Shown: positions 2,442 through 49,343, counted from the first letter of the stretch. The stretch: 64,000 nucleotides of DNA from Candidatus Omnitrophota bacterium (GCA_043806135.1 JAZDHG010000098.1:1660-65659); one strand, 5' to 3'. Program-made: numbers and translations. Notes: a model not told the origin generated them from the sequence alone.

Positions 2442-2617
2442 AATTCAGCTTTAATTTGCCAAAAATCAGTTGAATTTATGCTGTTTTTAAACGGCTTAAA
2501 GCAGGTAAAAATAGGCAAATTTTGACAATAATTTTAAATCTAGAAAAAAAAGTATTTTATGATGTTGCATCTTGTTTATTTTCAATCATTTATGATATAA
2601 AAAATTTTAAAATAATG

Positions 2618-2646
2618 TTGATATCCTTAACTTTCTATGGTATACT
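2618..2646 (+). promoter_or_regulatory. sigma70-like promoter of giant gene 1 (TTGATA-17 bp-TGgTATACT, extended -10)
   Basis: TTGATA at 2618-2623, 17-nt spacer, TATACT at 2641-2646 preceded by TGG. The same -10 context (ctatggtatactt) recurs upstream of the other giant genes. About 250 nt upstream of the likely ATG. Confidence 0.5.
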
Positions 2647-2893
2647 TAAAATGTCTTAAAGAAGTGCTAATGGCTTGTAGATGTTGTTGTAAACACAGTA
2701 AGTTAGAAAAATTAGAAAAACAATTTAATCTGAACAAATTGGATGGGTGGGTGGGGTGAAAGTGTAAAATCGCTTTCACCTGGCCCGCTTTGTATATTTA
2801 GGAACTGGACGCAAAAGTTTCACTACACCTAAAAGTGTCAATCCTAAGTAGGGGCTAAGGACGAACACTTAATATAAATAAATTCGAAATCAG

Positions 2894-5800
2894 GTGATCA
2901 AAATGTTTAACGCTGGCAAAAAATATAATCTGGCTTTCAGAATAATATCGGCGTTCATTATCCAATCGTTTCTGATTATGGATATTGCTTTTGCTGCCGG
3001 CGGCGACCTGAGATGGATAAAGAAACCTCAAGTTCCCCAATCAAACCTGGCCCCGACTTTCAACATGGAAAAGGGCGCTTTCCGTACAAGATTTGACCTA
3101 ATCGTTTCTCTGATGAACGCTTTTAAAAATAAAGATGAATTGAACTTAGAGCAAATGCGTTCTATGGGAATTAAGTATTTTACAGATTCTATTCTTCAGC
3201 TAAGAGGAGAAAATGAAGTCCTCTATATTTATGAATCCGACAGCAAGGATATCCCGGCTTTTCTTCAAAAATCAGATAATAAGGTCCGCTTTAACGGGTA
3301 TGTGATCGCTGCGGTAACACTTAGCGAACTGGAAAGAGCGGAAAAACCTGCTTTTGACATAAGTAAAGAGGAGTTTAAAAAACAGGGGCTTTTTCCCCGT
3401 CTTAGAATAAAAGTCGAAGAGTACCAGCGAAGAAAACAGTTCATAGATACTTCTGGTCATTATAAGCTTGCTGCTTCTCTTTTAAATGAAGCAATTGATC
3501 TCCCGGAAATGGTCGAAGAACTGCTTTCCAACACCGGAAACCTTAAAAAACTTTATGCTGTTCTTGGTAAAGCCAAAAAGAAATATAATCTGGAAAAAGA
3601 AATTAACTCAAGCCAGCGGCTTTTCATAATAAATGCTTTGCGTGATTTTGATTTTATGCCAAAGGAAACTATCGATGAGCTGAAATGGCGTGCTGAGCAG
3701 GAAGGAATTAATGTAAAGCAACTTGAGCGTCTGAGTCTTGCCAAACTCCGTGTTGAAGGGGCAGCTCAGGCAATTAAAACACAAAGGCCGATCAATGTAT
3801 TTGAGGCTATCAAAGATATTACTTCGCTTGAAAAAGAAATGCTTGATCTTACGGACGAACAGCTTAAAGGGAAAACCGCAGAGTTAAGAGACAGGCTTTA
3901 TGGAAAAGGAAACTTTTCCGGCAAACAGGAAAATTGGGAAGATGTTTTGCCTGAAGCGGCGGCGGTTTTCCGCGAGGCGCTAAGGAGAAAACATCCTGAT
4001 CATCCGCTGCTTTATGATGTTCAGATGATCGCGGGTATTGTCGTTTCTTTCGGCGGCAAGCTCTTACAGCAGTCAACAGGTGAAGGTAAAACATTTACCA
4101 CTGCACTTGGCGCATACTTGCTTTCACTGCGTGATGAAATAAAAACAGGCGTGCATTGCGCAACTGTAAACAACTATTTGGCGCAAAGAGATGCTGAAGA
4201 GGTGGGCAACGTTTTTCAAGCACTGGGCATGAGCGTTAGTGCCTTAGGGGAAGATCATAAAGGTATAAAAATTGTAAACGGCCGCGCAGAAGACACCGAT
4301 CGCAGGAGTGCTTATGAAAGCGACATTGTTTACGGCACAGCTCATGGCTACGGATTTGATTATCTGCAGGATCATCTCAGTACAAGAGTCGGGACAAAGG
4401 TTCAGAAAGGGTTTTTCGCTTCTGTAATTGATGAAGCTGATGAGATCCTGGTTGAAGAAGCTAATACGCCGTTGGTTATGTCCGGCGCTGCTGAAGAAAT
4501 GCCGGAAAAAGAAAGAAATATAAATTACCAGATAGACAATCTCATCAGAAGCTTAATGACCCGTAATGAAAATCAGAAGTATTTCAAGATAAAGCTGGAT
4601 GGAGGAGACAGCCGCAGCGTTACATTTACTGAAGCGGGTTATGATTATATTTACGGCATACTTTCCGGCATGAGTGAAGAGGAATTAAACGACCCGAACC
4701 GGTCTTTTAATGAAGAGCTCGATAGTGAATGGGCATATTTGCGCGCCATTGCGGATAATGCCTTAAAAGTACATCACCTTTATGTTAAAGACACTAAGAG
4801 CGATGAGGCTATTGCAATCGAAGAAGGTAAAATTCGTTACGCGGTTGCAAACGGAGAAGTGTTAACTGTTGCCACAGGCCGAACCCAGGAAGGCCGGCGC
4901 TTTAAAGACGGAATTCACCAGGCATTAGAAGCAAAAGAGCATAATGAAGAAGTACTGGCAGGAATAACTCCGACCATTGAGGTAAGACAAGACCCGGAAA
5001 CAGTTGCCAGTATTTCATTACAGAGTTTTTTTAAAAATTATCTCATCCTTTCCGGGTTAACCGGAACTACCCAGGGTATTGAACAAGAAGTAGCGGAGAC
5101 TTACGATCTTGATACCTTGAATATTCCTACGAATAAGCCGAGCATTCGCCAAGATCTGCCGGATGTCATTTTCAAAACAAAAGAGCAGAAAGATGCGGCA
5201 GTAGCTGCGGATGTCATTAACGAGCATGAAAATGCTACCCCTGTTCTTATTGGAACCGGCGGTGTAAATGAATCTGCGGAAATGGCTCTAAAAATTCAAC
5301 AGGCATTTCCGCGGGCAGTGGGAACAGAAATCATTGATTCAAAAGAGGCTTTGATCAGCCTGGCAGCCAGGATTTTAAACCGCGAAGTTAATGAAAATAA
5401 TCTTTTTAAAGCACTGGAAGAGATCAAAACAAAGGGTGATTTCGGCAAAGAAACTCCCATATTTGTTTTAAATGATACCACTAAGCACCTCGAAAAAGAA
5501 ATAGTGCTGCTGTCCGGATTAAAGGGGTCGATAACTGTGGCTACGGATATGGCCGGCCGCGGTACAGATTTTAAACTGGTTGATTTTGCCAGGATGGTGC
5601 AGGGTTTGTATGTAATAGGTACTGAATATCCGGAAAGCCTGCGTACGGAATACCAGCTGCGCGGCCGAAGCGCCCGGCAGGGACAGCCGGGAAGAACGCG
5701 TTTTTATATAAGCCTTGAAGACAAACTTTTCACCGGTCTTGGCGCAGATATTCCTAAGAAGCTTGCAGATGCAATTAAAAATTCCGGGTCTGAGATATCC

Positions 5801-8800
5801 GGAAAGATAAAGTTGAGCATTACTGTCTTGCGCGGAAAACGCCTGAGTAATGCTTTTAAACAAAGACAGGAATTAAGTAAGGATGACGCGACCCTTAATG
5901 TTTATAGAAAGGTTATTTATAATTTGGTTGATAACCTTATCGATGAGGAACAACCTGTAGACATAGCATCAATTTTATTTTCTTTATATGGAGATAAGAT
6001 CAGCGCGCAGACCTTAGAGATGCAGAAGTCAGCGCTTCTTGAAAAGATGAGCGAGGACGATGTTAAAGCGATCATTGTTGATCTGCTTACCACGCACTGG
6101 ACATATTTTATTAACGGCCTTGAAACAATAAGTAAAACCCGCGGTTTATCAGATCAGCTTTCCGGAAAAGATGAAAAAGTCAACCGCGCTTTATATGAGA
6201 AGAAAACATCTGAGATATTCGATGAGATGCTATCAGACCTGAAGGAAAATGTATTTGCGGCATTGTTGATGCCGTTCATGTCGGAAAACGACAGGGCTGC
6301 TCTTAACAGCGAAGCAGAAGAGACTATAGCACTTGAAAAAGAAGGAGCAAGTATTTTTGATAAACTTGATCCTGAGGAGATAGCGCAAAGGATCAAAAAA
6401 GGGCTGAACATCACAGTAAAAGAAAAGGTGCCGAGTATTGCCGAGCGGTTCAGTAAATGGGTTTTTGGTGAGGAACGCGGAACTACAGCCTTATTAAGTT
6501 CTGTGCTTGCCAAAGGATTTTATGCGTTTATTACAATAGCAGGAATTTTTGGCGGGGTAATTACTCCTGCTAAAACTGAAGCTTCGATTATACCTTCTGA
6601 TGAAGGGTTAACTGTAAAAGTACAGGAAACAAAAGCAGAATTTTCCTTGAATGATAAGAGAAAAACACAGATACTGGCGGAAATTTCTTTTGCGAAGATA
6701 GCTCAGCTTGTCGACTTAAAACTTCGGTCTTCTGAGTTTCAGGAAAAATATACCGGCCGTCCAAAAGAGCAGTTACAAAGCCTGGCTTACGATGAAGTTA
6801 TCCGCGATATTATCAAAAAGTCAGAACTTGGCCAGGATGTGCTGGCTTCATTAAATGATATAAAGGAAGTTGAGCTTGAATCTATTCCTGTTGTGCAGAG
6901 AGCACAATCAGATGTTTTATCCGGTATTGTGGCTGATACGACGTTACAACAGGTTGTAAAAAAATTCCGTATTCCGGTAAAGACACCCTACCGAACAAAT
7001 CTAATGAGCGAGTTCGAAGCAATCCGTGACCAAGGACGGCGAATACATCAAGGTTTTGATTTCCTTGTACAGGCAGGTACGGATATCTATCCGGCAATGC
7101 CGGGAAAAGTAATTTTTTCAGGAGCACTTAACGGTTACGGGAACATGGTGCTGTTGGAGCATGAAGTTGCGGACAGCACAACAGGACTAGTAAATTATTT
7201 TTACACTCTATACGGGCATAATGAGTCGAATCTGGTTAAGGCCGGGGACTATATCGGAGTTGATACTGTGATCGCTAAAGCAGGAGTTACAGGCAACGCG
7301 TCATCAGCTACCGGCGGCTGCCTGCATTTTGAAATCAAACAAACCACGCAAAAAGTCACCAACTATGCTAAATACCTGAATTTGGCAGCTCTTGATCCAG
7401 AGGTTGTGTTAGGGAAAAATTTATATTTGCCTGCCGATATTAACAAACGCGAGCCGATTCTTGTTGCATCAGCAGATCCAAACATGCCTTTGTTCGCAGC
7501 GGATAGGCGGGAAAAGACAAAACAGCCAAAACCTGTTGAAGCGCGAACTCAGACAAGAAGTATTATCGGAGGCCAGATCAGGCATGAGGTAGCACCAGGG
7601 CAAACGCTTAGCATGATCGCTGAAAAATTCTTTGTTAACGGTACTTCCGGGGAAAAAATCAGAGAATTTTATAATAAACAGCATCCGGAAGCTCCTATGA
7701 AAAATTTGATGCTCCTTACCGGAAAGACACTTGTCCTGGATATAGACGAGGAGATAGCATCTTTATTAAGGCCGGAAGATAAAGACATATCAATACAAAG
7801 ACCTGATTCGGAGTTTTCTAATATAACAGAAAATATTCGAATAAGAGAGCAGGGAATAGAGGGGATAGTCAACTTGCCAGTGCGCCTTAAGGGTGGAAAA
7901 ACATCCTTTGAATTTGATGAACGCACGAAGTTTATGGCTTTGCGCGGTGAAAATAAAGACAAAAAAAATCCGGGAGTTGATTTTGTCTTAAAAGAAGAAA
8001 CGCCTGTATATGCTGCAGCTCCAGGAGAGGTTTTCTTTGTAGGTAAAGCAGAAGCATACGGCAATCTTGTTATTATTCATCATACTGTTAAGGATCAAAG
8101 GGAAAATATAAATCATTTTTACTCTCTGTATGCGCACAATAAGAGCAATAATGTAAAAGTAGGACAGTTGGTAGATGCGACAACTCAGATTTCTGTTGCC
8201 GGCAAAACAGGCAAACCGCCAATAAGTGATGCAGATGCTGTGCTTCATTTTGAAATCAGGCGCGGGATAGAAAAACTTGAAAATCATCAGGAATATCTAC
8301 ATGATGCTTCCTACAGTGCTCTTTATCCCGGAATTGCTCTGAAAACTCAGGTGTTAAATCCTGAATTGTTTTTCAATAAGACATTTGACTCAGGCCTTAA
8401 AGCAGGAAGGCTGATTGTTCCACAAAATGAATATAAGCCTTTATCTGCTCGAAATATTGAGCAAGATAAAGTAATATCCCGTCAGGATCTTGAGTATAGA
8501 ATTGCCCAAAGTATGAGAAATAGAAATTTAAACATTATCCCTGAAGGATTGATGAACGCGATTGTATATCAGCAGCTGGCTAAGGAGTTTGGAGTTGAGT
8601 TTTATCAGCCTGAGGCGGGTCTAAAGGGTGATGATTATTTTGAAAAACTTATGAAGGCGGTTCGTGCAAAGCATGGAGAAGATGTTCTTATTGTTGAAGG
8701 GCATTTTAATTCAGTACCAGAAATGATGTTCTTTTTTAAAGAAAACGGGATTCAATATATCTCTAAAGTTAAGCACGGTGAAGTAAAACAAAAAAAACAT

Positions 8801-31687: not shown

Positions 31688-31691
31688 CCAG

Positions 31692-31890: not shown

Positions 31891-32040
31891 TTCACGTGTT
31901 TTTAAAACGCTTTATAAAGTAATTTAATTTTGAACAAAGAGATAAGTTAAGTATGTAAAATTTTTTAAGATTTTATTTAAAGTATTATTTTGAAGAATGT
32001 AATAACTTTCGTTTAAGCGTAAGGCAAATTAGGTGAGCAC

Positions 32041-32400: not shown

Positions 32401-32408
32401 TTGGAAAA

Positions 32409-41160: not shown

Positions 41161-41171
41161 AAGAGGCCGCA

Positions 41172-41591: not shown

Positions 41592-41769
41592 TTGTTGCGT
41601 TAAATGTTAATTAAGTTTTTAGCTGTCCTATGAGCCATGAGCTAGAATCTGTCATCTTTTTTCCAACCTCCAAATTACAAACCAAGTTTCTTATTTCCCC
41701 TTGTGACCTTTTGACTTGTGTCTGATGACTTTATTTCTGTTTTTTCCACCATCCCCAAACCAACCACTT

Positions 41770-41950
41770 TTTCATTGCTTGCGACATGCAGCTTGCAGCT
41801 TCAGCCCAAATCGTTCAATTTTTCTCTAAACGCTAATCCCTAGGCTCTAAACGCTGTATTTACAATATGTTATGAGCTTGCAAAGCTTCTAATCCTATGG
41901 TATACTTTGCTGTAATTTTTACATACTTTTTAAAGGCCTTTAATATTAAA
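41770..41950. repeat. ~190-bp intergenic direct repeat, copy B (matches 40270-40460), containing a promoter
   Basis: See copy A. The embedded promoter is TTGCAA (41878-41883), 17-nt spacer, TATACT (41901-41906). Confidence 0.8.
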
Positions 41951-42005: not shown

Positions 42006-45000
42006 ATGAACAATTTACTTTCCAAATCCTGGTTTCGCTTTATTTCCATTATACTTATCCAGTCATTTTTAATATTAGATATTGCCTGGGCAGGAGGCAC
42101 AGAACTTAATCTTAAGAAAAATTCCGATACGCTTTCCGCCCCGGTTGAAATCTCCCAGCAGATGTTTAATACAAGTTTTGGGAAACTTTATGAGATGAAC
42201 GTTCCTAAGGCGGCTAAGAATTTATCTGTTGGAATAGAAGAAAAAAAATCAAAATGGTCATTATCACAAATATGGCAATCTTTTAAGAAAAGTTTAAAAA
42301 ATAATCTGAGTTTGTTGCATCAGGCTTTTTCAATGGACAAAAAATCTGATGATGACAATGATTTTACGTCAGGCCTTAGATCTATCTTAATCCTGGCAAT
42401 GCTAACCCCCGCTCTTATTGCTTTAAGCTCAAGTCTTGGCTGGACAGGAGATAAAAATTTAATAGAAAGTACAAATGGGCTTATTTCTTATATCCCATTT
42501 AAAGAAATAAAAGATAGCACATATGCTTTCTATTACAACCTTTCCATACAGGGGCAAGTGGTTTTGTTTTATACAATTCTGCCGGTAATGCTCGGTCTTG
42601 TTATTGCTGGAGTTAAGGGTGTATTCGATAGTATAAGTAATAGAAATATTAAAAAAGCTGATCGCTCAAAACTACAATCATTTATGATTCCTCTTATACT
42701 CTCTCCCGCACTTATTGCCTTAAGTTCCAGTCTTAGCTGGGCAGGGGAGGGCACATCAATAGATGGCTCAATAATAGGCGGGGTGTTGGGTACATTGGCC
42801 CTTGCTGTAGGTATCGGGGCGGTGAAGTTCAGGAAAAATATACGCCTTGGTTTAAAGAAGTCATCAAATAAAATTACAGATAAAACTGCCAATGTGTTGA
42901 CGCCAATTTTACAGAAAGTTGTGAAGTCAAAATATTTCTGGGCGGGTCTTGTTGGGCTTTCGGTTTTTGTGAATGGGGGGGGTGTTCCAATGAATGTTGC
43001 TGTAATAGCAACTGTGATATCAGTTTCAGCAGCAATTTCGATTTTGTTTACAACTAAAATATCCCGTTCAACTAAAAAATTACTTACTCTATTATTGTCA
43101 GTGGTTATTTTTACTATTATGGGGTGTTCTCTTCATGAAACTAAAGTTACGAGCAGAAGCTTAACCGAATATCAAAATGTTGGTGATAATAAAGATACAT
43201 TTTCAAAAATAAGTAAAGAAAAAATGAGCTTTAAACAATTGGTTGCTATTTTAGAAAACGAAAATGAGCAGGAAGAAAATAGAATTAAAGCAGCTTTAAT
43301 GTTAAGTGACTTTAAACATAAAAAATTAGAGGATATACTCATAAAACAATTATATGCAACTAAAAAAGTTGATATAAACTTTGAATCAGGGCGAGAAATT
43401 GGTTATATCCGTAGTTTTCATTATGATAAACTAGATGCTAATAAATTGCAAGCAACAGCTGCTTGGATATTGGGGGAAAGGAAGAGTGAAAAAGCTGTTG
43501 AGAACCTGATACTTTTATCTGAATCAGGAGATAACTATGATCATTATCCTAAATTGAATAACTATATTTCTGCTTACTGGCCTCAATATACGGATTTGAT
43601 TGATTCCCGCTTAAATCTTCAAATTAATAGTATTATTGCTTTGGGAAAGATAGGCAACAAAAAAGCAGAGAAGTATTTAAAAACAAGGATGCTAAATAAT
43701 AATAATTGGCAAGTAGATTACGCGGTGTTATCTGCGCTATCTGAATTGGGAGATGAGAAAGCAATATTTTATGAGAAAATTTTTCGAAGTGATATTAGTT
43801 TTGTAGATAGAATAAGCAATGTTGCTAAACAAATAATCCGTGAATACCAGGAAAAGGGATTAGAAAGTCGTGTTAGAGAATATCTGATCGAAGTTTTTGT
43901 GGCAAATTCTAAATGGATAAATAATAGCTTGTATTCTAATCTTCGCTATCAAATGACGGCAGGTGTCTTGCTAAAGTTTTTAGGCGGAGATGATGTTGAT
44001 AGAATCTTTGCTGAATTTTCGAATAACATAGGGTCGAGAAGTATTGGTTATGATTTAAAAGTATTCTATGATCGTCTATTATCAAAGCATGATGATTATT
44101 TCGTTGATTCTTTAGATGTAAGACAATTAATTGATAATTTAAGTTTTACAGATCGAGTAGTGCTATTAACTCGATTAGAGAAGTTATTTGCTCTTAATGA
44201 AGAAGTAAAGCGAACAAATCAATGGTTTCTATTACGAAGGAATGAAATGAAGCCTTCAATAAGGGATAGGGTGGGCAGAGAAATCCCAAAACTAAAAGAG
44301 TTTATTATTAAAGAAATTTCTTCTATTGATGGTTTCGAAGAAATTGTAAAAGAAATGTGCTTTCTTAGGGGGCAAGGTGCTCTTTTTAGAGAAATAAAAG
44401 AGAAACTAAAACAATTTGAATATAAAGATGATAATAGTTCAAAGGAAAGATCGAATATCAGCAAGATTATAATAGCAGTTTTAGCTTCTCCCGTTCTTGT
44501 TGCCTTAAACTCAGGTATTGGCTGGGCGGGGGACGGGGGGCAACAGACGGCAGCGGGATTTAGTAGCCTTTTGAATGGGCAAACGGCACTGGGGATTTTG
44601 TTGGCTGCAGCTGCGTTAATAAGTTTAGACTTTGTATTTTATCGTCACTTTTCAACTAAGATTAAACAATGGGTTTCAAATATTAAGAGCAAGCTAAAAG
44701 ATGATAATACTTCAAGTTATAAAGTAATATCCCCCTCTGAACATGGAAAAAGCAGGCTTTCTGAAAGTCGTGATGAGGCTCAGAAGATCATTTCGTTTTT
44801 AGCCCCACAGGATCAACTGCCTGAAAAAGTAAACGCACTACTGGCGTTTGGTAATGAAGATCTCGAGACGCCTATCCGGGCGGCCAAAGTATATTTTGAT
44901 ACAAAGCCTGAGGTTGTTGTTTTTGCCGGTGGTATTGGTCATTCTACACAAAATCTTTGGGAAATAGGCAGCGAATATTTAGGCGTAGATCTGGAAACAT

Positions 45001-47975
45001 TGAAAGGCTTAAGCGAGGCAGAAATTTTTGCCTGGATTTTTAAGGAAGAATTGAAAAAACTTGGCATGCCTGCCGAGGAAATAGGCAAAATAAAAATATT
45101 ATTGGATACAACCTCACGCAATTCTCAGGAAAATGCCAGAAACAGCTTAAAACTGCTTTATAATAACGGATTTCTAGCAGGCCAGATGAGTATTATTCTT
45201 ATGCAAAAGCCATTGCTGCAAATAAGAGCAGGCGCGAACTTAAGAAGAGAAATTAAGACCATGGAAACAGAGCTTGGGGAGAAATTTTCAATACAATGCT
45301 TTAATCATGCACCATATGTGCCGGATATAAGCTTGATGCAAGATGCAGAATTAGAAGAAATCACAAATGATGCCTTGGGTGAGATTGAAAGGCTGAAGAT
45401 GTACCCTGCTCTGCGTTTTAATTTCATTGATACAATTGAAATTCCAGAAAATGTAAACAAAGCGTATTATGAACTTAAAAAAAATCTTTACCCGGACCGA
45501 TCTATTGAATCTGAGGGAAAACTTGTTGCCGGGTTAATTAAGGAACAGGATAGAACAAGGACTGATATAGATAGGCCTATCCAGGTTGAGTCAGGAGAAT
45601 ATAAAGCAGGTTCGTCTTTTATTAACTTTGCGACTGAACGTTATCAGGGATCCTTATATTTGATTGAAGGAAGCGCTAATGCACAGATAAAAGGTGAAGA
45701 GGGAATTATTCAAACCATAGAATTGGGTAAAGGAGATATTATTAATCTGTTTGTTAACTCTGATATTGTTTTTACAGAGGATTCTAAATTTTATATTTTT
45801 AGGCAGACCGATGCTTCTCAAACTTCAGTAGATCATAAAGAAAAACTTGATGGTGAGGTAACCATTGATTCACGCAATGTTATCGAAAAAGATAGGAATA
45901 TAATTGCTGACGTTTACAGAGATGCGCGAGGTGACTTAATAGCTACTGTTCATAGAATTGATATGGCTTCGCCGGCAAAAATGGTGATGACTACGCCGCG
46001 CAGCGCTGCTATTGGTATTGGTGTAAAAACAGCTATTGGAGATGAAGCTGCTCATCGTCATGAATTAGACGGAAAAAGCAAGATAGAGATTGCACTTTGC
46101 CGAATGGGGTCTCTGACTGCCTATGTTGGGAATAAAGAGGGTAAAGATGTTAATGAAGTCGATGTTAAACAGAATGAGCTGTTAATTCTTTATCCAGACA
46201 GTACTCATGGATTTGAATTCAATAACGCTAAAATGGCAATTATTATCCAGGATCCCGGACGCGGGATTGACAAGGTTGATGCTAAACTTGAAAAAACAAC
46301 TGAAATAACGCTTGGTGCAGCGGAAAAACTTAAGACAGAGCCGGAATCGGTAATTACGGAAGCTATTAAACTTCAGGAACAGGATAAACAGGAAGAGGCA
46401 ATGGCTCTTATCCTTAACTCTTTGCTGGACAAGAACCTTAATCCAGCGGATTATGCGTCTTTTTACCAGGTTTTTGATAAAGAAAGCGGCGATTTTATCG
46501 GATATATGCTTGACGGCAAAGTATATATCAGAGGGGTAGGGTATGAATATAAAGAGTTACTTAATGGCGGGTATAATCCTCTTAAACATGTGCTTCGTGC
46601 CATTTCTGATTTATCTTTTGAAGAAATTATTTCGCTGCCATATGCAGGCAGCTCTTTTAACAAGAATGGGAGGTTGATCGGCACGGTTATTAAAGCAGAT
46701 GATTCGAGGGCACAGAACGGGCCGTATTTGTATACAGCCCAGGAAAATCCTTTAAGAGTCAGGAGTTTTCACGCCGCAAAAGGAACAAAAAGCGAAAAGT
46801 ATCTGCTATCGCCGGTCTCTGAACCTAATCCGTTTGGCAACAGGCCGAGACAGGAAGTATGGCATGTGTTAAAGGGAAAAATCAGGTGTGTGTTCTATAC
46901 CAAAGACAATGAGTATATAGGCGAACAGGTCATGTCTAAAGGCGACACTGCTTTGTTTTCAGAAGCTCATCAGGTGTTTTTTGAAGAAGATTCTATAGTC
47001 CTTGAAATAAGGCAAGGCCCGTGCTCTGCTGATGAGTCGGATAGGCAGATTCTGGATGATGTTGATAATGCTGTTTCAGGATATATAGAAAATGCCGCAG
47101 ACCTTTCGTTCACCGCATTCAAAAAGGAAAACAGGTTAGTTGGAGCAGTAGTCAAAGCAAATCATGTGCCTTTTGACAAGCTGCAAAAATTCTCCGCAAT
47201 GCCTGATCCTATCCAATTTAACAGCTTTTACAAGGATAAAGGCATGAGGGGAACAAAACTTTATCACCCTCCTGTACAGGGTGAAAGTCCCTTCAAGGAC
47301 CAGCCGAGACAGGAAGTGTTATTTATCCTCAAAGGTAAGGTAAGGGTTAAATTTTCTACTGTGGAAAATATCGATGTGGCAGAGGAAATATTAGAGGCCG
47401 GGGATGCTGTTTTGTTTACAGAGGGACATGTGGTTGAGTTCCTGGAAGATACGGTTTTTTTAGAAGCTAAACAAGGACCGTATCCGTCTTCAGGCAATAA
47501 AGATGATGATCAGATTGTATTAAATGAAAACATTGCTCCGGAAAATACAAAATTCGGAAAGCTGGGAATTAATTTTGAACATATTACAAAAACAGCACAA
47601 CTTAACCCTGAGCTGCCGCTTTTTGACTTGATTCTTCAAGATAGTAATTCTCTGGATCCAACCCTGAAGGGAAAAGTTGACCAGTTACAACAGATGGCAA
47701 CAGCGTTCTTTATTAAAGGGGAATTTGATAAAGTAATAGAAACTATTCAAGAAATAATCAAGATATATCCAAATAGTTTTGAAGTGATGCGGCTAATAAT
47801 GGACGGAGTGAAAGAACATAAAGCATTAGCTTCACGCGAACCTGAGATGAAGCTTTTTATTGAATCTAAAGGGACTGTTCTTGAACTGACCGGGGATGAA
47901 ATGCCGTTAAAAGATGCTGTAGGAGCCATTGAAGCAGGTATGAGAGCCGGACAGTTTTTGATGCAGGCGATATAA
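42006..47975 (+). CDS. giant membrane-associated protein (1989 aa): conserved leader; reiterated hydrophobic-helix+WAG modules; DUF218 (SanA/ElyC/YdcF-like) domain; two tandem cupin-like domains
   Basis: RBS AAAGGAA upstream of the ATG. Leader MNNLLSKSWFRFISIILIQSFLILDIAWAGG. Internal modules PALIALSSSLGWTGD (42381-42452), PALIALSSSLSWAGEG (42681-42752) and PVLVALNSGIGWAGDGG (44466-44540). Several other TM helices lie in 42540-43130. DUF218-like segment at 44815-45250 (LLAFGNED...VVFAGGIGHST...TTSRNSQENARNSLKLL). Cupin-like repeats at 46680-47030 and 47140-47490, each with PRQEV...LKGK(I/V)R...GD(T/A)(A/V)LF(S/T)E(A/G)H. Confidence 0.85.
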   Translation: MNNLLSKSWFRFISIILIQSFLILDIAWAGGTELNLKKNSDTLSAPVEISQQMFNTSFGKLYEMNVPKAAKNLSVGIEEKKSKWSLSQIWQSFKKSLKNNLSLLHQAFSMDKKSDDDNDFTSGLRSILILAMLTPALIALSSSLGWTGDKNLIESTNGLISYIPFKEIKDSTYAFYYNLSIQGQVVLFYTILPVMLGLVIAGVKGVFDSISNRNIKKADRSKLQSFMIPLILSPALIALSSSLSWAGEGTSIDGSIIGGVLGTLALAVGIGAVKFRKNIRLGLKKSSNKITDKTANVLTPILQKVVKSKYFWAGLVGLSVFVNGGGVPMNVAVIATVISVSAAISILFTTKISRSTKKLLTLLLSVVIFTIMGCSLHETKVTSRSLTEYQNVGDNKDTFSKISKEKMSFKQLVAILENENEQEENRIKAALMLSDFKHKKLEDILIKQLYATKKVDINFESGREIGYIRSFHYDKLDANKLQATAAWILGERKSEKAVENLILLSESGDNYDHYPKLNNYISAYWPQYTDLIDSRLNLQINSIIALGKIGNKKAEKYLKTRMLNNNNWQVDYAVLSALSELGDEKAIFYEKIFRSDISFVDRISNVAKQIIREYQEKGLESRVREYLIEVFVANSKWINNSLYSNLRYQMTAGVLLKFLGGDDVDRIFAEFSNNIGSRSIGYDLKVFYDRLLSKHDDYFVDSLDVRQLIDNLSFTDRVVLLTRLEKLFALNEEVKRTNQWFLLRRNEMKPSIRDRVGREIPKLKEFIIKEISSIDGFEEIVKEMCFLRGQGALFREIKEKLKQFEYKDDNSSKERSNISKIIIAVLASPVLVALNSGIGWAGDGGQQTAAGFSSLLNGQTALGILLAAAALISLDFVFYRHFSTKIKQWVSNIKSKLKDDNTSSYKVISPSEHGKSRLSESRDEAQKIISFLAPQDQLPEKVNALLAFGNEDLETPIRAAKVYFDTKPEVVVFAGGIGHSTQNLWEIGSEYLGVDLETLKGLSEAEIFAWIFKEELKKLGMPAEEIGKIKILLDTTSRNSQENARNSLKLLYNNGFLAGQMSIILMQKPLLQIRAGANLRREIKTMETELGEKFSIQCFNHAPYVPDISLMQDAELEEITNDALGEIERLKMYPALRFNFIDTIEIPENVNKAYYELKKNLYPDRSIESEGKLVAGLIKEQDRTRTDIDRPIQVESGEYKAGSSFINFATERYQGSLYLIEGSANAQIKGEEGIIQTIELGKGDIINLFVNSDIVFTEDSKFYIFRQTDASQTSVDHKEKLDGEVTIDSRNVIEKDRNIIADVYRDARGDLIATVHRIDMASPAKMVMTTPRSAAIGIGVKTAIGDEAAHRHELDGKSKIEIALCRMGSLTAYVGNKEGKDVNEVDVKQNELLILYPDSTHGFEFNNAKMAIIIQDPGRGIDKVDAKLEKTTEITLGAAEKLKTEPESVITEAIKLQEQDKQEEAMALILNSLLDKNLNPADYASFYQVFDKESGDFIGYMLDGKVYIRGVGYEYKELLNGGYNPLKHVLRAISDLSFEEIISLPYAGSSFNKNGRLIGTVIKADDSRAQNGPYLYTAQENPLRVRSFHAAKGTKSEKYLLSPVSEPNPFGNRPRQEVWHVLKGKIRCVFYTKDNEYIGEQVMSKGDTALFSEAHQVFFEEDSIVLEIRQGPCSADESDRQILDDVDNAVSGYIENAADLSFTAFKKENRLVGAVVKANHVPFDKLQKFSAMPDPIQFNSFYKDKGMRGTKLYHPPVQGESPFKDQPRQEVLFILKGKVRVKFSTVENIDVAEEILEAGDAVLFTEGHVVEFLEDTVFLEAKQGPYPSSGNKDDDQIVLNENIAPENTKFGKLGINFEHITKTAQLNPELPLFDLILQDSNSLDPTLKGKVDQLQQMATAFFIKGEFDKVIETIQEIIKIYPNSFEVMRLIMDGVKEHKALASREPEMKLFIESKGTVLELTGDEMPLKDAVGAIEAGMRAGQFLMQAI

Positions 47976-48470
47976 AGACACAGATTGACACAGATAGACA
48001 AAAACCGTGCAGATGAACACTGATAACTACTGAGGGATGAGGGACGCAATAAAAATTATTAGCTATGAACGACTAGTTATGAGTTATTAGTTACGAATTA
48101 TAAGTTATTTGTATTATTTGGGAGATATGTTTACAATGAAAGATGTTATCAGTTGGTGGCTGAAAAAACTATTTTTACTCATTCTCGACAGACATCCATG
48201 TCTGTCTGCGAGGGCAAAACCTGCTTTTACACATCCATGTATCAGCAGTCTTTGAATCCGCAAAAATAGTTATTTCCATCCAAATACTGTCAACACCAAG
48301 TTACAATAATACAAGTTATTTGTGAAAAATAAAAGCAAAGGAAGAGCTGGTCAATAGTCCATAGTCGATGGTTAATGGGAAAAGAAGTTTCCTGTTACCG
48401 GTTGCCGGTTATGCTGCGGAAAAGAATAGAGTCTAAAAGTGAAAAATAGTTGGAAAACACAAGGGAATAA

Positions 48471-49343
48471 ATGGAAAAAAATTTGATTTTAAAGACGATA
48501 TTGATTTTGCTGATGAATAGTTTTTTATTGCTTGATATCGCTTGGGCAGGGGGTGTTAATTTGTCTGTGTCTGAAAATTCGGATACCCTTGCTGCCCCTA
48601 TACAGATAAATAAAACTTCATTTTTCAATACAGCCTATACCATCAATGTAAAACCCCAAATACTTACGAGTGAAAAAGGAGAGATGCCTGCTGAACTTGC
48701 CAAATTGCTTCCCAGAAGGAAGGTGGATAGATGGGTTTGGAATGATGAATTAAATATGTATATAGGTATTTATGCTAAAGACAATACGGAAGAAAAAAAG
48801 AAGAATTTGGAATTGTCCGGCCCAGAAGAACAAACATCTGCTCAACTAATTGAAAAACGCCGTATTCCTATATTTGAATCAAAAAGGGATGTAATTCTTT
48901 GCATAGGATTATTGGCGACGTTTTATGTCGCGGTTATGGTCCCGCTGATAGCGGGGGTTTGGAATCGTGTCTATGACATCTTCCCGAGAATGTTTATGTC
49001 GTATTCCATATGTATGGGTGGGGCTATTGCCATAGCTGCTATAGTTTCTGCGTTAATAATCCCTAATTTACTGCCTTGGCAAAAAATCGGGTTGGCTTTA
49101 AGTGAAATATTTAAATCTTCATCTACAGAGCCAGAACCGATAGTTAGCAACAAAAAAGATCAGTATTTGCTGAATAGTCAGAATTTAGACAGCTTGCCGG
49201 GAAATCTATATCAAGAGCCTGTACAGGCTGGAAAAACACCTGAGCCTATAGCCTTTAGCGAAGCGGTGAAAAGCCTTGATAAGGGGTTGTTAGAGAATAA
49301 CCTTCTTTTATTTAATCTTAAACTTATTGCTGCTTCTTTATAA
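48471..49343 (+). CDS. membrane protein (290 aa) carrying the same conserved N-terminal leader as giant proteins 3 and 1
   Basis: N-terminus ...LILLMNSFLLLDIAWAGGVNLSVSENSDTLAAPIQINKTSFFNTAYTINV aligns with G3 ...LIQSFLILDIAWAGGTELNLKKNSDTLSAPVEISQQMFNTSFGKLYEMNV. Two to three C-terminal TM helices. RBS AAGGGA upstream. Confidence 0.6.
   Translation: MEKNLILKTILILLMNSFLLLDIAWAGGVNLSVSENSDTLAAPIQINKTSFFNTAYTINVKPQILTSEKGEMPAELAKLLPRRKVDRWVWNDELNMYIGIYAKDNTEEKKKNLELSGPEEQTSAQLIEKRRIPIFESKRDVILCIGLLATFYVAVMVPLIAGVWNRVYDIFPRMFMSYSICMGGAIAIAAIVSALIIPNLLPWQKIGLALSEIFKSSSTEPEPIVSNKKDQYLLNSQNLDSLPGNLYQEPVQAGKTPEPIAFSEAVKSLDKGLLENNLLLFNLKLIAASL

What the first reader, a model, noticed from the sequence alone, without database searches (positions are those of the whole stretch)
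2600..49343. Giant-gene island: three ORFs of 27.4, 7.5 and 6.0 kb with shared promoters and leaders, plus a TA pair, a PilZ gene and a RAYT
About 41 of 46.7 kb is occupied by three ORFs. All three encode secreted or membrane multidomain proteins combining enzymatic modules rarely seen together. These include a SecA motor, M23/LysM modules, carbamoyltransferase, radical SAM, DUF218 and cupins.

Four units in the island share a near-identical promoter, and G1, G3 and a 290-aa protein share an N-terminal leader. A RAYT with REP hairpins and a MntA/HepT pair are embedded in the island.

The peptidoglycan hydrolase and binding modules on a surface-exposed giant protein would fit an epibiotic or predatory attack apparatus, as proposed for giant genes of ultra-small bacteria. 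This remains inference.
Basis: partly seen in the sequence, partly recalled or inferred. Interest (0 to 1): 0.8.

Follow-up and report, generated by a model that had tools for sequence, protein, structure and literature searches.

The report
Omnitrophota-type giant membrane-protein gene cluster
Three real, very long genes of an Omnitrophota-like bacterium; the 9,126-residue one joins a SecA export motor, cell-wall-binding modules and a previously unnoticed glucan-synthase-like enzyme, so it is a new member of a recently described class.

Summary

The genes are not artefacts. Related MAGs, mostly labelled Omnitrophota, carry collinear orthologues at 44-67% identity. The order G1, PilZ, (RAYT), G3 is conserved in two of them.

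The class is already published: giant Omnitrophota membrane proteins with a divergent SecA domain, pilZ downstream and GH2 flanks.

- G1 residues ~6970-8070 are a divergent GT48/GT2-type processive glycan synthase. A family profile hits FKS1 at E=3.5e-25, and the model folds like BcsA and FKS1.
- G1 also holds nine Rhs-like beta-hairpin/helix repeats.
- One M23 domain is degenerate and the other lacks a catalytic His.
- G2 and the toxin-antitoxin pair are absent from the relatives, and each sits behind a copy of the promoter element.

That promoter, with a downstream palindrome, is conserved across species upstream of G3.

My reading: an envelope-spanning, self-exporting machine that binds peptidoglycan and makes or extrudes a glycan. 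The adjacent PilZ suggests c-di-GMP control, but this is inferred. The predation reading is neither excluded nor shown. G1's membrane topology relative to its leader is unresolved.

The parts
2618..2646 (+). Promoter-like site upstream of G1: TTGATA, 17-nt spacer, TG-n-TATACT (extended -10)
   Evidence: It shares the CTATGGTATACTT core with the other three copies at 13 of 15 positions.
2653..2902 (+). Roughly 250-nt 5' leader of G1. It holds a strong hairpin at about 2745-2790 followed by a U-rich tract.
   Evidence: RNA fold z = -3.2, and none of 200 shuffles folds as well. No Rfam family matches. Its function is unknown.
2903..30283 (+). G1, the giant gene: 9,126 aa from ATG 2903 (the ORF opens at GTG 2894)
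   Evidence: Collinear orthologues exist in L005, L009 and L006/P0121, and P0226 matches the N-terminal part.
2903..3112 (+). Shared N-terminal leader module (about aa 1-70): K/R-rich start, hydrophobic stretch ending ..FLIMDIAFAAGG, then an NLAP..F motif
   Evidence: Alignment with G3 and p290. The same module is present in P0177 and in the G3 orthologues of L005 and L009 at 77% and 67% identity.
3797..6022 (+). SecA-like ATPase module (aa ~299-1040): NBD1, PPXD, NBD2 and the start of the helical scaffold. No wing/SecA_SW domain is detected.
   Evidence: Pfam. It is 34% identical to an Omnitrophica SecA over residues 21-632, with GEGKT, DEAD, MAGRGTD and QLRGRSARQG all kept. PDB SecA hits reach E=3e-89.
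6491..6547 (+). Transmembrane helix at aa 1197-1215. The flanking charges fit an N-in/C-out orientation.
   Evidence: Hydropathy scans. The orientation is my inference from the flanking charges.
7034..8299 (+). Two M23/LytM domains (aa 1378-1485 and 1665-1799) with a LysM-like segment between them (aa 1561-1587). A second LysM lies at 9371-9418 (aa 2157-2172).
   Evidence: M23-1 has HQGFD, YGH and CLH. M23-2 has NPGVD, YAH and VLH, which is a DipM/EnvC-like degenerate pattern.
13034..13852 (+). Region with a marginal Pfam GH76 match, which I read as an (alpha/alpha)6-type glycosidase-like domain (aa ~3378-3650). It is paralogous to the C-terminal half of the gene at 58067..60013.
   Evidence: Pfam GH76 scores 26.9 bits against a cut-off of 25.9. 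The region is 28% identical to f648 at E=4e-19. It recurs in related giants. No structure was predicted for it.
15581..19621 (+). Nine tandem repeats of about 115-145 aa (aa 4227-5573). Each is four beta strands, three helices and two more strands, with DNxGR and GxT[YF]xY[DE] motifs.
21953..22009 (+). Trp-rich transmembrane helix (aa 6351-6369, WYVFWWTMPLALGIYLLGA) followed by GRKARKAKEKGR. I infer an out-to-in orientation.
   Evidence: Sequence located. The orientation is inferred from the positive-inside rule.
23816..27118 (+). Polytopic membrane block carrying a GT48/GT2-type processive glycan-synthase-like domain (aa ~6972-8072). The conserved core is aa 7440-7815, at 25220-26347.
   Evidence: 103 homologues. 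The family profile hits FKS1/GSC2 at E=3.5e-25 and BcsA at 3e-16. Pfam Glucan_synthase matches 13 of 24 family members. The AlphaFold2 model has pLDDT 78, and Foldseek's top hits are BcsA, HAS, Chs, FKS1 and CesA. D7465 and E7559-D7560 are invariant.
30499..30858 (+). Stand-alone PilZ protein (119 aa) with RxxxR (RYSIR) and DxSxxG (DMSMVG) motifs
   Evidence: Pfam. The motifs were read from the translation. Orthologues sit directly after the G1 orthologue in L005 (76% identity) and L009 (62%).
30961..31720 (+). RAYT-like Y1 (HUH) transposase gene at 31049..31687, bracketed by two related hairpins at 30961-30997 and 31686-31720
   Evidence: An orthologue lies at the same position in L005 at 66% identity.
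31841..31948 (+). Promoter element copy 2 (TTGCAT, 17-nt spacer, TGGTATACT at 31862-31890) with the CTTTATAAAG palindrome downstream
32041..32400 (+). 119-aa ORF with an N-terminal hydrophobic segment ending in a Cys (lipoprotein-like). No family matches.
32409..39938 (+). G2 (2,509 aa). It has an N-terminal hydrophobic segment and an N-domain (aa 22-381) shared with other giants. Then come a NodU/CmcH-type carbamoyltransferase (aa 531-1127), a P-loop-like GPGESGRT segment, a radical SAM domain (aa ~1512-1742) and a weak left-handed beta-helix match.
   Evidence: The N-domain is 47-49% identical to the N-termini of P0192 and P0212. No close relative exists in GTDB genomes, and G2 is absent from L005 and L009.
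40277..40458 (+). Promoter element copy 3, a 182-nt direct repeat of 41769-41950 at 82% identity
40759..41591 (+). MntA (nucleotidyltransferase antitoxin, 40759..41160) and HepT (RNase toxin, 41172..41591), a type VII toxin-antitoxin pair
   Evidence: A Logan contig is 100% identical to 40401..41922. GC is 0.30-0.31.
41769..41950 (+). Promoter element copy 4 (TTGCAA, 17-nt spacer, TGGTATACT at 41878-41906), upstream of G3
   Evidence: The element is conserved upstream of the G3 orthologues in L005 and L009.
42006..47975 (+). G3 (1,989 aa). It has the shared leader, about 8 transmembrane segments and three internal leader-like motifs. It also has HEAT repeats, a DUF218-like domain (aa 959-1082) and WbuC/cupin-like domains (aa ~1615-1810).
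   Evidence: Orthologues with the same leader follow G1 and PilZ in L005 and L009.
48471..49343 (+). 290-aa membrane protein with the shared leader and two further transmembrane helices. A terminator-like hairpin lies at 49650-49671.
   Evidence: The identical protein occurs in two SRA runs, SRR13662870 and SRR27925880.

Best explanation
**What it is.** A chromosomal gene cluster of an Omnitrophota-type (PVC-group) bacterium, built around G1, a member of the recently described giant membrane proteins that carry a SecA-like domain.

**Shown: the parts of G1, in order.**
- A conserved leader.
- A SecA-like ATPase with intact nucleotide-binding motifs.
- A transmembrane helix.
- A stretch of about 5,100 aa holding two LytM domains (one degenerate, one lacking a catalytic His), two LysM segments, a GH76-like region and nine Rhs-like beta-hairpin/helix repeats.
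- A second transmembrane helix.
- A membrane-embedded GT48/GT2-type processive glycan-synthase-like module. It keeps the Asp of the DxD position, the ED of the 'TED' finger and the Lys equivalent to Fks1 K1082.
- An acidic C-terminal tail of about 1,060 aa.

**Also shown.** A PilZ gene with intact c-di-GMP-binding motifs follows G1 in three genomes. G3 follows with the same leader and a cross-species conserved promoter plus palindrome.

**Inferred: how it works.**
- The SecA module sits in the cytoplasm just before the first membrane anchor. It drives export of G1's own huge outer segment.
- It may also export the other proteins that carry the same leader (G3 and p290), much as accessory SecA2 systems serve a few special substrates.
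- The LytM and LysM parts tether the machine to peptidoglycan.
- The synthase module polymerises a sugar nucleotide and threads the glycan outward. The neighbouring PilZ would control this, by analogy with BcsA.
- G2 (carbamoyltransferase, radical SAM, beta-helix) and G3 (DUF218-like, cupins) are co-regulated modifiers of a glycan or of the envelope.

**Embedded passengers.** The RAYT is a domesticated, vertically inherited gene. G2, the 119-aa ORF and MntA/HepT are lineage-specific insertions, each sitting behind a duplicated copy of the promoter element.
For: **The genes are real and conserved.**
- L005 is collinear with G1 aa 4129-8818 and 9073-9126 at 57-70% identity, with 77% nucleotide identity over 6.8 kb.
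- L009 is collinear over aa 4371-8352 at 44-61%.
- P0121 is collinear over aa 4234-8346 at 41-50%, and its ORF is open to the contig edge.
- P0226 is 67% identical to aa 194-620 and carries SecA_DEAD.
- P0177 shares the leader, aa 2157-4119 (43% identical over its longest 1,410-aa alignment) and the synthase core.
- There are no nucleotide tandem repeats inside the giant genes.
- Logan contigs from two sequencing runs are identical to parts of the window.

**Taxonomy.** The labelled relatives are Omnitrophica/Omnitrophota, apart from one labelled Planctomycetia and one Elusimicrobia.

**SecA module.**

**Synthase module.**
- The family profile hits FKS1/GSC2 at 3.5e-25 and BcsA at 3e-16.
- Pfam Glucan_synthase matches 13 of 24 members and Glyco_trans_2_3 matches 16 of 24.
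- The AlphaFold2 model has pLDDT 78, and all top Foldseek hits are processive membrane synthases.
- The invariant D and ED map to Fks1 D1102 and E1221/D1222, which PMC10499315 names as active-site residues.

**Synteny and regulation.**
- PilZ synteny is shown. Published giant-gene loci also carry pilZ downstream.
- The promoter and palindrome are conserved in three genomes.
- The leader is conserved.

**Topology.** The charge pattern around the transmembrane helices at aa 1197 and 6351 puts SecA and the synthase inside and LytM/LysM outside (orientation inferred).

**Insertions.** G2 and the toxin-antitoxin pair are absent from L005 and L009. The pair is bracketed by 182-nt repeats.
Against: - G1 itself gives no Pfam or PDB hit for the synthase region. 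Only the family profile and the fold do.
- The N-terminal half of the GT-A domain was not confirmed. Profile A4 finds no significant PDB hit.
- The G1 subfamily has WRMPP where Fks1 has the K1246-G-R1248 motif, so catalysis may be altered or lost.
- The leader looks like a cleavable signal peptide. If it worked as one, the SecA module would be outside the cytoplasm, which contradicts the proposed topology.
- G2 has a single N-terminal hydrophobic segment, yet it carries enzymes that need ATP, SAM and Fe-S clusters.
- No expression data, no c-di-GMP binding data and no polymer are known.
- None of the 103 synthase-family representatives shares G1's SecA and LytM N-terminal part. How general the fusion is therefore rests on one 421-aa fragment (P0226).
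Confidence: 0.55

Rival explanations
1. Predatory or epibiotic attack apparatus, the reading of the first reader and of West-Roberts 2023. G1 is a surface giant whose M23/LysM and glycosidase-like parts bind and digest the cell wall of a prey or host cell. G2 and G3 are further secreted enzymes acting on or in the prey.
For: - G1 has M23, LysM and GH76-like modules in the segment predicted to lie outside the cytoplasm.
- It has Rhs/teneurin-like repeats.
- GH2-type hydrolases and a sugar transporter lie next door.
- The published giant-gene loci have the same context, and their authors favour predation.
- G2 and G3 carry cytoplasm-type enzymes behind export signals. That would make sense if they act inside another cell (inference).
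Against: - M23-2 is degenerate and M23-1 lacks one catalytic His.
- The best-conserved part of the family is a synthase, not a hydrolase.
- GH76 is only marginal, at 26.9 bits against a cut-off of 25.9.
- The window holds no type II secretion or pilus genes.
- Nothing here bears on lifestyle.
- The two readings are not exclusive. A glycan-extruding adhesin could serve attachment to a host.
Confidence: 0.25
2. Rhs/teneurin-type toxin or effector delivery protein. The nine beta-hairpin repeats form a shell or tube that encloses or conducts a C-terminal effector, and the TA pair and transposase mark a polymorphic-toxin locus.
For: - YD-like motifs (DNxGR and GxTYxYD) are present.
- West-Roberts compare the beta-helix tubule with Rhs and VgrG.
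Against: - The repeat unit is about 135 aa and includes three helices, unlike the roughly 20-aa YD repeats.
- Pfam finds no RHS_repeat, no Rhs core and no recognisable toxin domain.
- No immunity gene is present.
- The repeats lie mid-protein between two membrane anchors.
Confidence: 0.08
3. The whole region is a horizontally acquired mobile island, with the RAYT, the TA pair and the repeated promoters as scars of transfer.
For: - A Y1 transposase and a TA pair are embedded, and both have lower GC (0.30-0.31) than their surroundings.
- 182-nt direct repeats bracket the TA pair.
- G2, the 119-aa ORF and the TA pair are missing in relatives.
- Nielsen & Lui report mobile-element-rich flanks at giant loci.
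Against: - G1, PilZ, (RAYT) and G3 are syntenic in genomes that have diverged to 44-77% identity.
- The GC content and strand skew of the giant genes are like those of the flanking genes.
- No tRNA or integrase is present.
- Only the G2 and TA segments look like insertions.
Confidence: 0.1
4. Assembly artefact or decayed pseudogene fusion: the long ORFs are chimeras of ordinary genes.
For: - The exact proteins of G3, the RAYT and the MFS transporter are not on record in the public collection.
- Public short-read contigs of the same organism are only 1.5-2.3 kb long.
Against: - Three independent assemblies give collinear ORFs of more than 4,800 to 6,193 aa, each cut only by a contig or locus edge.
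- There are no in-frame stops over 27.4 kb in DNA of about 39% GC.
- There are no tandem nucleotide repeats.
- The domains are in a functionally coherent order.
Confidence: 0.02

Closest known systems
Giant Omnitrophota membrane proteins with divergent SecA DEAD domains ('Archaeovorin'-type; West-Roberts et al. 2023, bioRxiv 10.1101/2023.11.21.568195; Nielsen & Lui 2026, bioRxiv 10.64898/2026.06.07.730766)
   Same: - The relatives are Omnitrophota.
- G1 has an N-terminal signal-like segment and many transmembrane helices.
- Its SecA DEAD and preprotein-binding domains come without a wing domain.
- It carries glycosyltransferase, glycosidase-like and peptidase modules.
- It has a beta-hairpin array with external helices.
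- pilZ lies downstream, and GH2 hydrolases, a transposase and a TA gene lie in the flanks.
   Different: - At 9,126 aa, G1 is below the size cut-offs of both catalogues (10,000 aa or more; genes above 90 kb).
- No methyltransferase, NUDIX, dockerin or C39 domain was found.
- The main texts of both papers mention no glucan or cellulose synthase, M23, LysM or promoter.
- No type II secretion genes lie in the window.
Processive membrane glycan synthases: fungal Fks1/GSC2 (GT48) and bacterial cellulose synthase BcsA (GT2) with its c-di-GMP-binding PilZ domain
   Same: - Profile hits reach E=3.5e-25 (Fks) and 3e-16 (BcsA), covering the second half of the GT-A domain and the following membrane helices.
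- The fold matches.
- The Asp of the DxD/DAN position, the ED of the TED finger and the equivalent of Fks1 K1082 are all kept.
- A PilZ protein is genetically linked.
   Different: - The module is embedded near the C-terminus of a 9-kaa protein.
- G1 alone is too divergent for Pfam.
- WRMPP replaces the K-G-R motif.
- PilZ is a separate gene rather than a fused domain.
- The first half of the GT domain is unconfirmed.
- The product and activity are unknown.
Accessory Sec (SecA2/SecY2) export of very large surface glycoproteins with special long leaders (own knowledge; not tested here)
   Same: There is a dedicated SecA paralogue. A small set of co-encoded proteins shares an unusually conserved, extended N-terminal leader. 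Sugar-modifying enzymes lie in the same locus.
   Different: The SecA paralogue is fused into one of its presumed substrates. There are no SecY2 or Asp genes. The organisms are not Gram-positive. The link is an analogy only.
Non-catalytic LytM factors (EnvC, NlpD, DipM)
   Same: The best PDB sequence matches of the two M23 domains include EnvC and DipM. M23-2 lacks the metal-binding His, as they do.
   Different: M23-1 keeps three of the four His/Asp positions. Both domains sit inside a giant multidomain protein.
Rhs/teneurin YD-repeat shells
   Different: The unit is about 135 aa with a three-helix insert. Pfam finds no RHS match and no core or toxin domain.
RAYT/REP systems and type VII MntA-HepT toxin-antitoxin pairs
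   Same: - The HUH (HLH) and Tyr (RYVHLNP) motifs are present, and hairpins flank the gene.
- MntA and HepT pass the equivalog cut-offs, with GSx10DxD and Rx4HxY motifs readable in the sequence.
   Different: The RAYT score is below the NCBIfam cut-off, and only two hairpins can be seen in 64 kb. The TA pair is ordinary.

Membership tests
Omnitrophota giant SecA-domain membrane proteins (West-Roberts 2023) | Encoded in an Omnitrophota genome | tested here: inconclusive
   The window holds no marker genes. The nearest homologues are labelled Omnitrophica/Omnitrophota in 6 cases, Planctomycetia in 1 (the closest, L005) and Elusimicrobia in 1.
Omnitrophota giant SecA-domain membrane proteins (West-Roberts 2023) | Giant size: genes above 90 kb in West-Roberts; 10,000 aa or more in Nielsen & Lui | tested here: not met
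   G1 is 9,126-9,129 aa, or 27.4 kb.
Omnitrophota giant SecA-domain membrane proteins (West-Roberts 2023) | Divergent SecA DEAD and preprotein-binding domains without the scaffold/wing domain, together with many transmembrane helices | tested here: met
   SecA_DEAD, SecA_PP_bind and P-loop_SecA are found, but not SecA_SW. About 14 hydrophobic segments are present. The phylogenetic position of the SecA domain was not tested.
Omnitrophota giant SecA-domain membrane proteins (West-Roberts 2023) | pilZ and carbohydrate genes next to the giant gene | tested here: met
   PilZ lies at 30499..30858 and is conserved in L005 and L009. An MFS_2 sugar transporter and two GH2_C-like proteins lie downstream. 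Compare.
SecA translocase ATPase | Walker A, DEAD box and NBD2 arginine-finger motifs | tested here: met
   GEGKT, DEAD, MAGRGTD and QLRGRSARQGQPG align with canonical SecA.
SecA translocase ATPase | Complete helical scaffold, wing domain, two-helix finger and C-terminal linker | tested here: not met
   The alignment stops at about residue 632-668 of canonical SecA. SecA_SW (PF07516) is not detected.
GT48/GT2 processive membrane glycan synthases | Significant sequence similarity to Fks/BcsA across the catalytic and channel regions | tested here: met
   This is met at the family-profile level: E=3.5e-25 and 3e-16, and Pfam PF02364 in 13 of 24 members. G1 alone gives no hit.
GT48/GT2 processive membrane glycan synthases | GT-A fold followed by a transmembrane channel | tested here: met
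   The AlphaFold2 model has pLDDT 78. Foldseek finds BcsA at TM-score 0.58, Fks1 at 0.64, and also HAS, Chs and CesA. Only aa 7430-7825 were modelled.
GT48/GT2 processive membrane glycan synthases | Catalytic signature: D, D(xD), (T/S)ED and QxxRW, or the Fks1 K1246/R1248 pair | tested here: inconclusive
   The second Asp (D7465) and ED (7559-7560) are invariant. AKW sits where RW would be. WRMPP replaces KGR. The first Asp lies in the N-terminal half, which could not be aligned. Residue roles are taken from PMC10499315.
GT48/GT2 processive membrane glycan synthases | Glycosyl transfer and polymer export activity | not testable with these tools
   This needs biochemistry.
Peptidase M23 (active LytM-type endopeptidase) | HxxxD and HxH metal/catalytic motifs plus the central catalytic His | tested here: not met
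   M23-1 has HQGFD and YGH but CLH. M23-2 has NPGVD, YAH and VLH. Neither domain has the full set.
PilZ c-di-GMP receptor | RxxxR and (D/N)xSxxG motifs | tested here: met
   RYSIR and DMSMVG are readable in the translation of 30499..30858. Pfam PilZ scores 2.5e-8. Binding itself was not tested.
RAYT (REP-associated tyrosine transposase) | Match to the RAYT model with HUH and Tyr motifs | tested here: inconclusive
   NCBIfam NF047646 scores 69.8 bits against a cut-off of 80. HLH and RYVHLNP are present.
RAYT (REP-associated tyrosine transposase) | Single-copy gene flanked by REP hairpins that are dispersed through the genome | tested here: inconclusive
   Two related flanking hairpins are present. 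The gene is syntenic in L005, which fits domestication. The genome-wide REP count cannot be obtained from 64 kb.
Type VII toxin-antitoxin MntA/HepT | Adjacent MntA nucleotidyltransferase and HepT RNase genes that pass the equivalog models | tested here: met
   The scores are 92 and 123 bits against a cut-off of 60. The genes are 11 nt apart.

The most novel reading that the evidence does not exclude
**Reading.** G1 and its roughly 100 relatives form an undescribed family of bacterial giant envelope machines. Their conserved heart is the closest prokaryotic counterpart of the eukaryotic GT48 beta-1,3-glucan synthases (Fks, callose synthase).

**In G1 specifically.**
- A cis-encoded SecA motor exports a 5-kaa outer arm.
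- The Rhs-like beta-helix tube of that arm guides the nascent glycan away from the cell.
- A separate PilZ protein switches the process on in response to c-di-GMP.
- The shared leader marks a small regulon of substrates (G1, G3, p290) for that private SecA.

**Status.** This is not excluded by any result here. It rests on profile and fold similarity, synteny and analogy. It has no biochemical support.
Probability: 0.25. Interest if true: 0.8.

Novelty: new member of a known kind. Interest (0 to 1): 0.55.

Why it matters
- Giant Omnitrophota proteins are known mainly from catalogues. What they do is an open question, and the favoured idea is digestion of prey cell walls.
- This 9-kaa example is small enough to dissect. 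It shows that the best-conserved module of its family is a processive glycan-synthase-like domain related to Fks1 and BcsA, with a PilZ gene conserved next to it.
- That offers a concrete alternative or complement that can be tested: these proteins may build or extrude a surface polymer under c-di-GMP control.
- It also provides bacterial relatives of a glycosyltransferase family (GT48) that, to my knowledge, has been characterised only in eukaryotes.
- The conserved promoter with its palindrome, and the conserved leader, give handles for studying the regulation and export of giant proteins.
- If the synthase proves inactive, the locus is simply one more well-annotated member of a known class.

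Tried and rejected
- **Word-index search with G1 aa 1-1300.** It returned only canonical SecAs at 29-36% identity and no giants.
- **Word-index search with aa 6900-8100.** Nothing at E<=1e-3. The exhaustive HMMER search was needed.
- **Genome scan with G2.** No relative found.
- **Two metagenome scans with the G1 N-terminus.** Nothing found.
- **Exact-protein look-ups.** They failed for the MFS transporter, the RAYT and G3.
- **My by-eye GT48 similarity.** Pfam on G1 itself did not confirm it, even at E<=1. Neither did phmmer against the PDB. It was confirmed only through a family profile and the fold.
- **N-terminal half of the synthase domain.** Profile A4 gave no PDB match, so the motifs I saw by eye there (EAxxRLRR, WANYRxxT) remain unverified.
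- **Three-repeat alignment for structure prediction (A5).** MAFFT aligned the overlapping rows by identity rather than in repeat register, so I dropped it and used single repeats instead.
- **Alignment A3 as a locus query.** It was too divergent.
- **Rfam.** No family in the window, and none in the G1 leader.
- **tRNAs.** None found.
- **Promoter-like hexamer counts.** They are no higher than in shuffled sequence. The promoter claim therefore rests on conservation, not on the scan.
- **Codon table.** The 'G1b' row was computed out of frame and is disregarded.
- **A double-glycine (C39-processed) leader.** I considered and rejected it. The motif ends in GG, but the segment is strongly hydrophobic and has an AxA-type site. 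No C39 peptidase is present in the window.

Full report
**1. The observation.**

The window holds three very long ORFs on the + strand:
- G1 at 2894..30283 (9,129 aa)
- G2 at 32409..39938 (2,509 aa)
- G3 at 42006..47975 (1,989 aa)

Together they are 40.9 kb of the 46.7-kb span. For G1 the likely start is ATG 2903, preceded by AGGTGA. All G1 residue numbers below run from that ATG (9,126 aa).

- PilZ at 30499..30858
- a Y1 transposase at 31049..31687
- a 119-aa ORF at 32041..32400
- MntA at 40759..41160
- HepT at 41172..41591
- a 290-aa protein at 48471..49343

A 27-kb stretch of about 39% GC DNA with no in-frame stop cannot arise by chance. This is my inference from stop-codon frequency.

**2.

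Pfam confirms the following:
- SecA_DEAD (8.7e-70), P-loop_SecA and SecA_PP_bind in G1
- two M23 domains and two partial LysM domains in G1
- carbamoyltransferase N- and C-terminal domains and radical SAM in G2
- HEAT repeats in G3

DUF218 and the cupins sit at or below their curated cut-offs. MntA and HepT pass the NCBIfam equivalog cut-offs. The transposase matches the RAYT model at 69.8 bits, below the cut-off of 80.

Two related hairpins (TCTGAC..GTCAGA) bracket the transposase gene. None is expected by chance. With only 64 kb available, a genome-wide REP family cannot be assessed.

**3. Promoters and leader.**

A 15-nt core, CCTATGGTATACTTT, is exact at 31878, 40402 and 41894. It has two mismatches at 2634. 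Around it lies TTGCA(A/T), a 17-nt spacer, then TG-n-TATACT.

The three downstream copies are 69-82% identical over 108-182 nt. The G1 copy shares only the hexamers and the extended -10.

Hexamer counts in the region are no higher than in shuffled sequence, so the scan alone is not evidence. The evidence is conservation:
- The same -35 hexamer and TGGTATACTTT block recur upstream of the G3 orthologues in two other genomes.
- So do a downstream CTTTATAAAG palindrome and a TTTAAT block.
- The surrounding DNA in those genomes has diverged.

The N-terminal leader (..Q[SA]F[LI]xLD[IVM][AS]WA(A)GG, then ..LAP..I..Q..F) is shared by several proteins:
- G1, G3 and p290
- the G3 orthologues, at 77% and 67% identity
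- an unrelated-sample giant, P0177

G3 also contains three internal copies of the hydrophobic-stretch plus [GS]W[AT]G[DE]G motif.

**4. Are the giant genes real, and whose are they?**

Short-read Logan contigs from SRR13662870 and SRR27925880 encode HepT and p290 exactly. One contig is 100% identical to window 40401..41922 and ends inside the two promoter repeats.

An exhaustive HMMER search with G1 aa 6950-8100 found 103 representative proteins. Of these, 38 are 2,000 aa or longer and 18 are 5,000 aa or longer.

The relatives are:
- **P0121** (MCG2711356.1, Candidatus Omnitrophica), the best hit. It is collinear with G1 aa 4234-8346 at 41-50% identity, and its ORF is open to the contig edge.
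- **L005** (CAYTGV010000010.1, labelled uncultured Planctomycetia). It has 57-70% amino-acid identity and 77% nucleotide identity over 6.8 kb.
- **L009** (JAZDHZ010000007.1, Candidatus Omnitrophota). It has 44-61% identity.
- **Three further Omnitrophota contigs** from the same scan.
- **P0226**, a 421-aa partial Omnitrophica protein. It is 67% identical to G1 aa 194-620 and carries SecA_DEAD.

There are no tandem nucleotide repeats inside the giants. The source is most likely an Omnitrophota (PVC-group) bacterium.

**5. Synteny.**
- In L005 the G1 orthologue is followed by PilZ (76% identity) and the RAYT (66%). A 1,032-aa G3-like gene then follows, with the same leader and the DUF218/cupin part.
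- In L009 the order is G1 orthologue, PilZ (62%), four small ORFs, then a G3-like gene.
- G2, the 119-aa ORF and MntA/HepT are absent from both.
- In the window, G2 and the toxin-antitoxin pair each lie behind a copy of the promoter element. The toxin-antitoxin pair is bracketed by 182-nt direct repeats.
- The RAYT, MntA and HepT have GC of 0.30-0.31, against 0.37-0.43 elsewhere.

So the core G1-PilZ-G3 cluster is vertically inherited. G2 and the toxin-antitoxin pair look like lineage-specific insertions at the promoter. This last step is inference.

**6. Anatomy of G1.**

*SecA module (aa ~299-1040).*
- It aligns with canonical SecA residues 21-632 at 34% identity.
- GEGKT, DEAD, MAGRGTD and QLRGRSARQG are all intact.
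- It aligns with E. coli SecA residues 16-668.
- No wing/SecA_SW domain is detected.

*Hydrophobic segments.* They lie at aa 14-32, at 1197-1215 and in a cluster from 6972 to 8072. A Trp-rich helix at 6351-6369 is followed by GRKARKAKEKGR.

*M23 domains.*
- M23-1 (aa 1378-1485) keeps HxxxD and YGH but has CLH where HLH is expected.
- M23-2 (aa 1665-1799) has NPGVD and VLH. It aligns best with the non-catalytic DipM.

*aa 3378-3650.* Pfam GH76 matches marginally, at 26.9 bits against a cut-off of 25.9. I read the region as an (alpha/alpha)6-type glycosidase-like domain, but no structure was predicted for it. It is paralogous to the C-terminal half of the PilZ-domain protein at 58067..60013 (28% identity, E=4e-19).

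*Repeats (aa 4227-5573).*
- This stretch holds nine repeats of 115-145 aa.
- A single repeat folds with pLDDT 93 into four strands, three helices and two strands.
- This fits the 'antiparallel beta-helix with exterior helices' that West-Roberts et al. predicted in other Omnitrophota giants.

**7. The synthase module, the main new point.**

The most conserved part of the family is G1 aa 7440-7815. The evidence is:
- **Invariant residues.** In a 24-sequence alignment the invariant residues are D36, G108 and E130-D131 of the segment. These are G1 D7465, G7537 and E7559-D7560.
- **Profile against the PDB.** The profile matches Fks1/GSC2 1,3-beta-glucan synthases at E=3.5e-25, with profile positions 7-368 against Fks1 1080-1492. 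It matches BcsA at 3e-16.
- **Pfam on family members.** Thirteen of 24 members hit Pfam Glucan_synthase on their own (best 1.1e-23). Sixteen hit Glyco_trans_2_3. G1 itself hits nothing.
- **Fold.** An AlphaFold2 model of G1 aa 7430-7825 has pLDDT 78 and pTM 0.74. It finds only processive membrane synthases: BcsA at E=5e-7, hyaluronan and chitin synthases, Fks1 at TM-score 0.64, CesA and Cgs.
- **Residue mapping.** Using the roles given for Fks1 in PMC10499315, G1 keeps the equivalents of K1082, D1102 and E1221/D1222. It has WRMPP where Fks1 has K1246-G-R1248.

The N-terminal half of the GT-A domain could not be confirmed. So G1 carries a divergent synthase-type module. Whether it is catalytically active is open.

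Neither giant-gene preprint mentions glucan or cellulose synthase in its main text. Their supplements were not searched.

**8. Topology and mechanism (inferred).**

The charge distribution suggests the helix at aa 1197-1215 runs in-to-out and the helix at aa 6351-6369 runs out-to-in. That arrangement gives:
- the SecA ATPase and the synthase in the cytoplasm
- about 5,130 aa outside, comprising the LytM and LysM parts, the GH76-like region and the repeats

This is the only arrangement in which every recognisable module sits where its chemistry works.

In that arrangement the SecA motor lies just upstream of the anchor that must start export of a 5-kaa segment. This fits self-export, which West-Roberts also suggested. 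G3 and p290 share the leader and the promoter, so they may be further clients. That idea is an analogy with accessory SecA2 systems, drawn from my own knowledge.

PilZ next to a BcsA/Fks-like synthase in three genomes suggests c-di-GMP control in trans. The RxxxR and DxSxxG motifs are intact in the translation.

G2 and G3 carry sugar- or envelope-modifying enzyme types:
- a NodU/CmcH-type carbamoyltransferase
- a radical SAM domain
- a weak left-handed beta-helix match
- a DUF218-like domain
- WbuC-type cupins

An MFS_2 sugar transporter and two GH2-type hydrolases lie downstream. The cluster as a whole therefore looks carbohydrate-centred.

**9. What does not fit.**
- The leader looks like a cleavable Sec signal. 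In P0177, G3 and p290 it precedes membrane or exported parts. In G1 it would put the SecA module outside.
- G2 has only one N-terminal hydrophobic segment, yet it carries ATP-, SAM- and Fe-S-dependent enzymes.
- Such implausible predicted locations are also noted in the literature.
- None of the 103 synthase-family representatives shares G1's first 2,100 residues.

**10. Comparison and verdict.**

The class is known: giant Omnitrophota membrane proteins with a divergent SecA domain, pilZ downstream, and GH2 and mobile-element flanks.

G1 is a small member, below both catalogues' size thresholds. The predatory reading remains possible but gains little here. The LytM domains are incomplete, and the conserved core is a synthase.

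New in this analysis:
- the GT48/GT2-like module and its family of about 100 mostly long proteins
- the conserved G1-PilZ-G3 synteny
- the cross-species conserved promoter with its palindrome
- the conserved leader module
- the insertion history of G2 and the toxin-antitoxin pair

I rate this a new member of a known kind, of moderate interest.

Noticed in passing
window 2653-2905: The roughly 250-nt 5' leader of G1 folds more stably than shuffled sequence (z = -3.2). It has a strong hairpin at about 2745-2790 followed by UUUGUAUAUUU, which could be an attenuator. No Rfam family matches.
   Followed up: partly
window 31895-31925, 40420-40450, 41912-41945; L005 ~17535-17560; L009: A CTTT(A/T)TAAAG palindrome followed by TTTAAT lies about 15-35 nt downstream of the -10 hexamer. 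It is conserved in the window's G2, TA and G3 copies and upstream of the G3 orthologues in two other genomes. It could be an operator.
   Followed up: partly
window 58067-60013: This 648-aa protein has an N-terminal PilZ domain with RxxxR and DxSxxG present, a transmembrane helix and a coiled coil. Its C-terminal domain is 28% identical to G1 aa 3382-3650, and that domain recurs in many related giants.
   Followed up: partly
window 40277-40458 and 41769-41950: 182-nt direct repeats (82% identical) bracket the MntA/HepT cassette. A public short-read contig (SRR13662870_25915) equals window 40401..41922 and breaks inside both repeats.
   Followed up: yes
window 42006-47975 (G3 aa ~120-150, 223-250, 821-845): G3 holds three internal copies of the leader-like motif: a positive patch, a hydrophobic stretch, then [GS]W[AT]G[DE]G. 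They could be internal signal-like or cleavage sites.
   Followed up: no
window 32472-33551 (G2 aa 22-381): The G2 N-terminal domain matches no Pfam family. It is 47-49% identical to the N-termini of two other giants (P0192, 6,502 aa; P0212, 5,066 aa) that carry the synthase core. It is therefore a second type of giant-protein N-terminal module. A third type (..AVPLAEAxQ..) occurs in P0130, P0152 and P0171.
   Followed up: partly
window 30290-30490, 40540-40640, 41620-41650, 48054-48108: The intergenic DNA contains odd word-like low-complexity motifs, such as AGTAGCGAGTAGCAAGGAGC, TTATGAATTATGAG and AGCTATTAGCTATCAGC. It also holds a 14-nt tandem array.
   Followed up: no
window 51308-53206 / 54574-55857 and 53210-53827 / 53879-54538: There are two paralogue pairs downstream of the cluster: GH2_C-like hydrolases at 34% identity, and 205- and 219-aa proteins of unknown family at 41% identity.
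   Followed up: no
L005 ~14500-15300 (C-terminal part of the G1 orthologue): The closest orthologue has an extra C-terminal stretch with a HIT/GalT-like PRHMHFQAF motif that G1 lacks.
   Followed up: no
window 60013-62403: This 796-aa ORF has one N-terminal hydrophobic segment and matches no family. It overlaps the stop of the PilZ-domain gene, so the two are probably co-transcribed.
   Followed up: no
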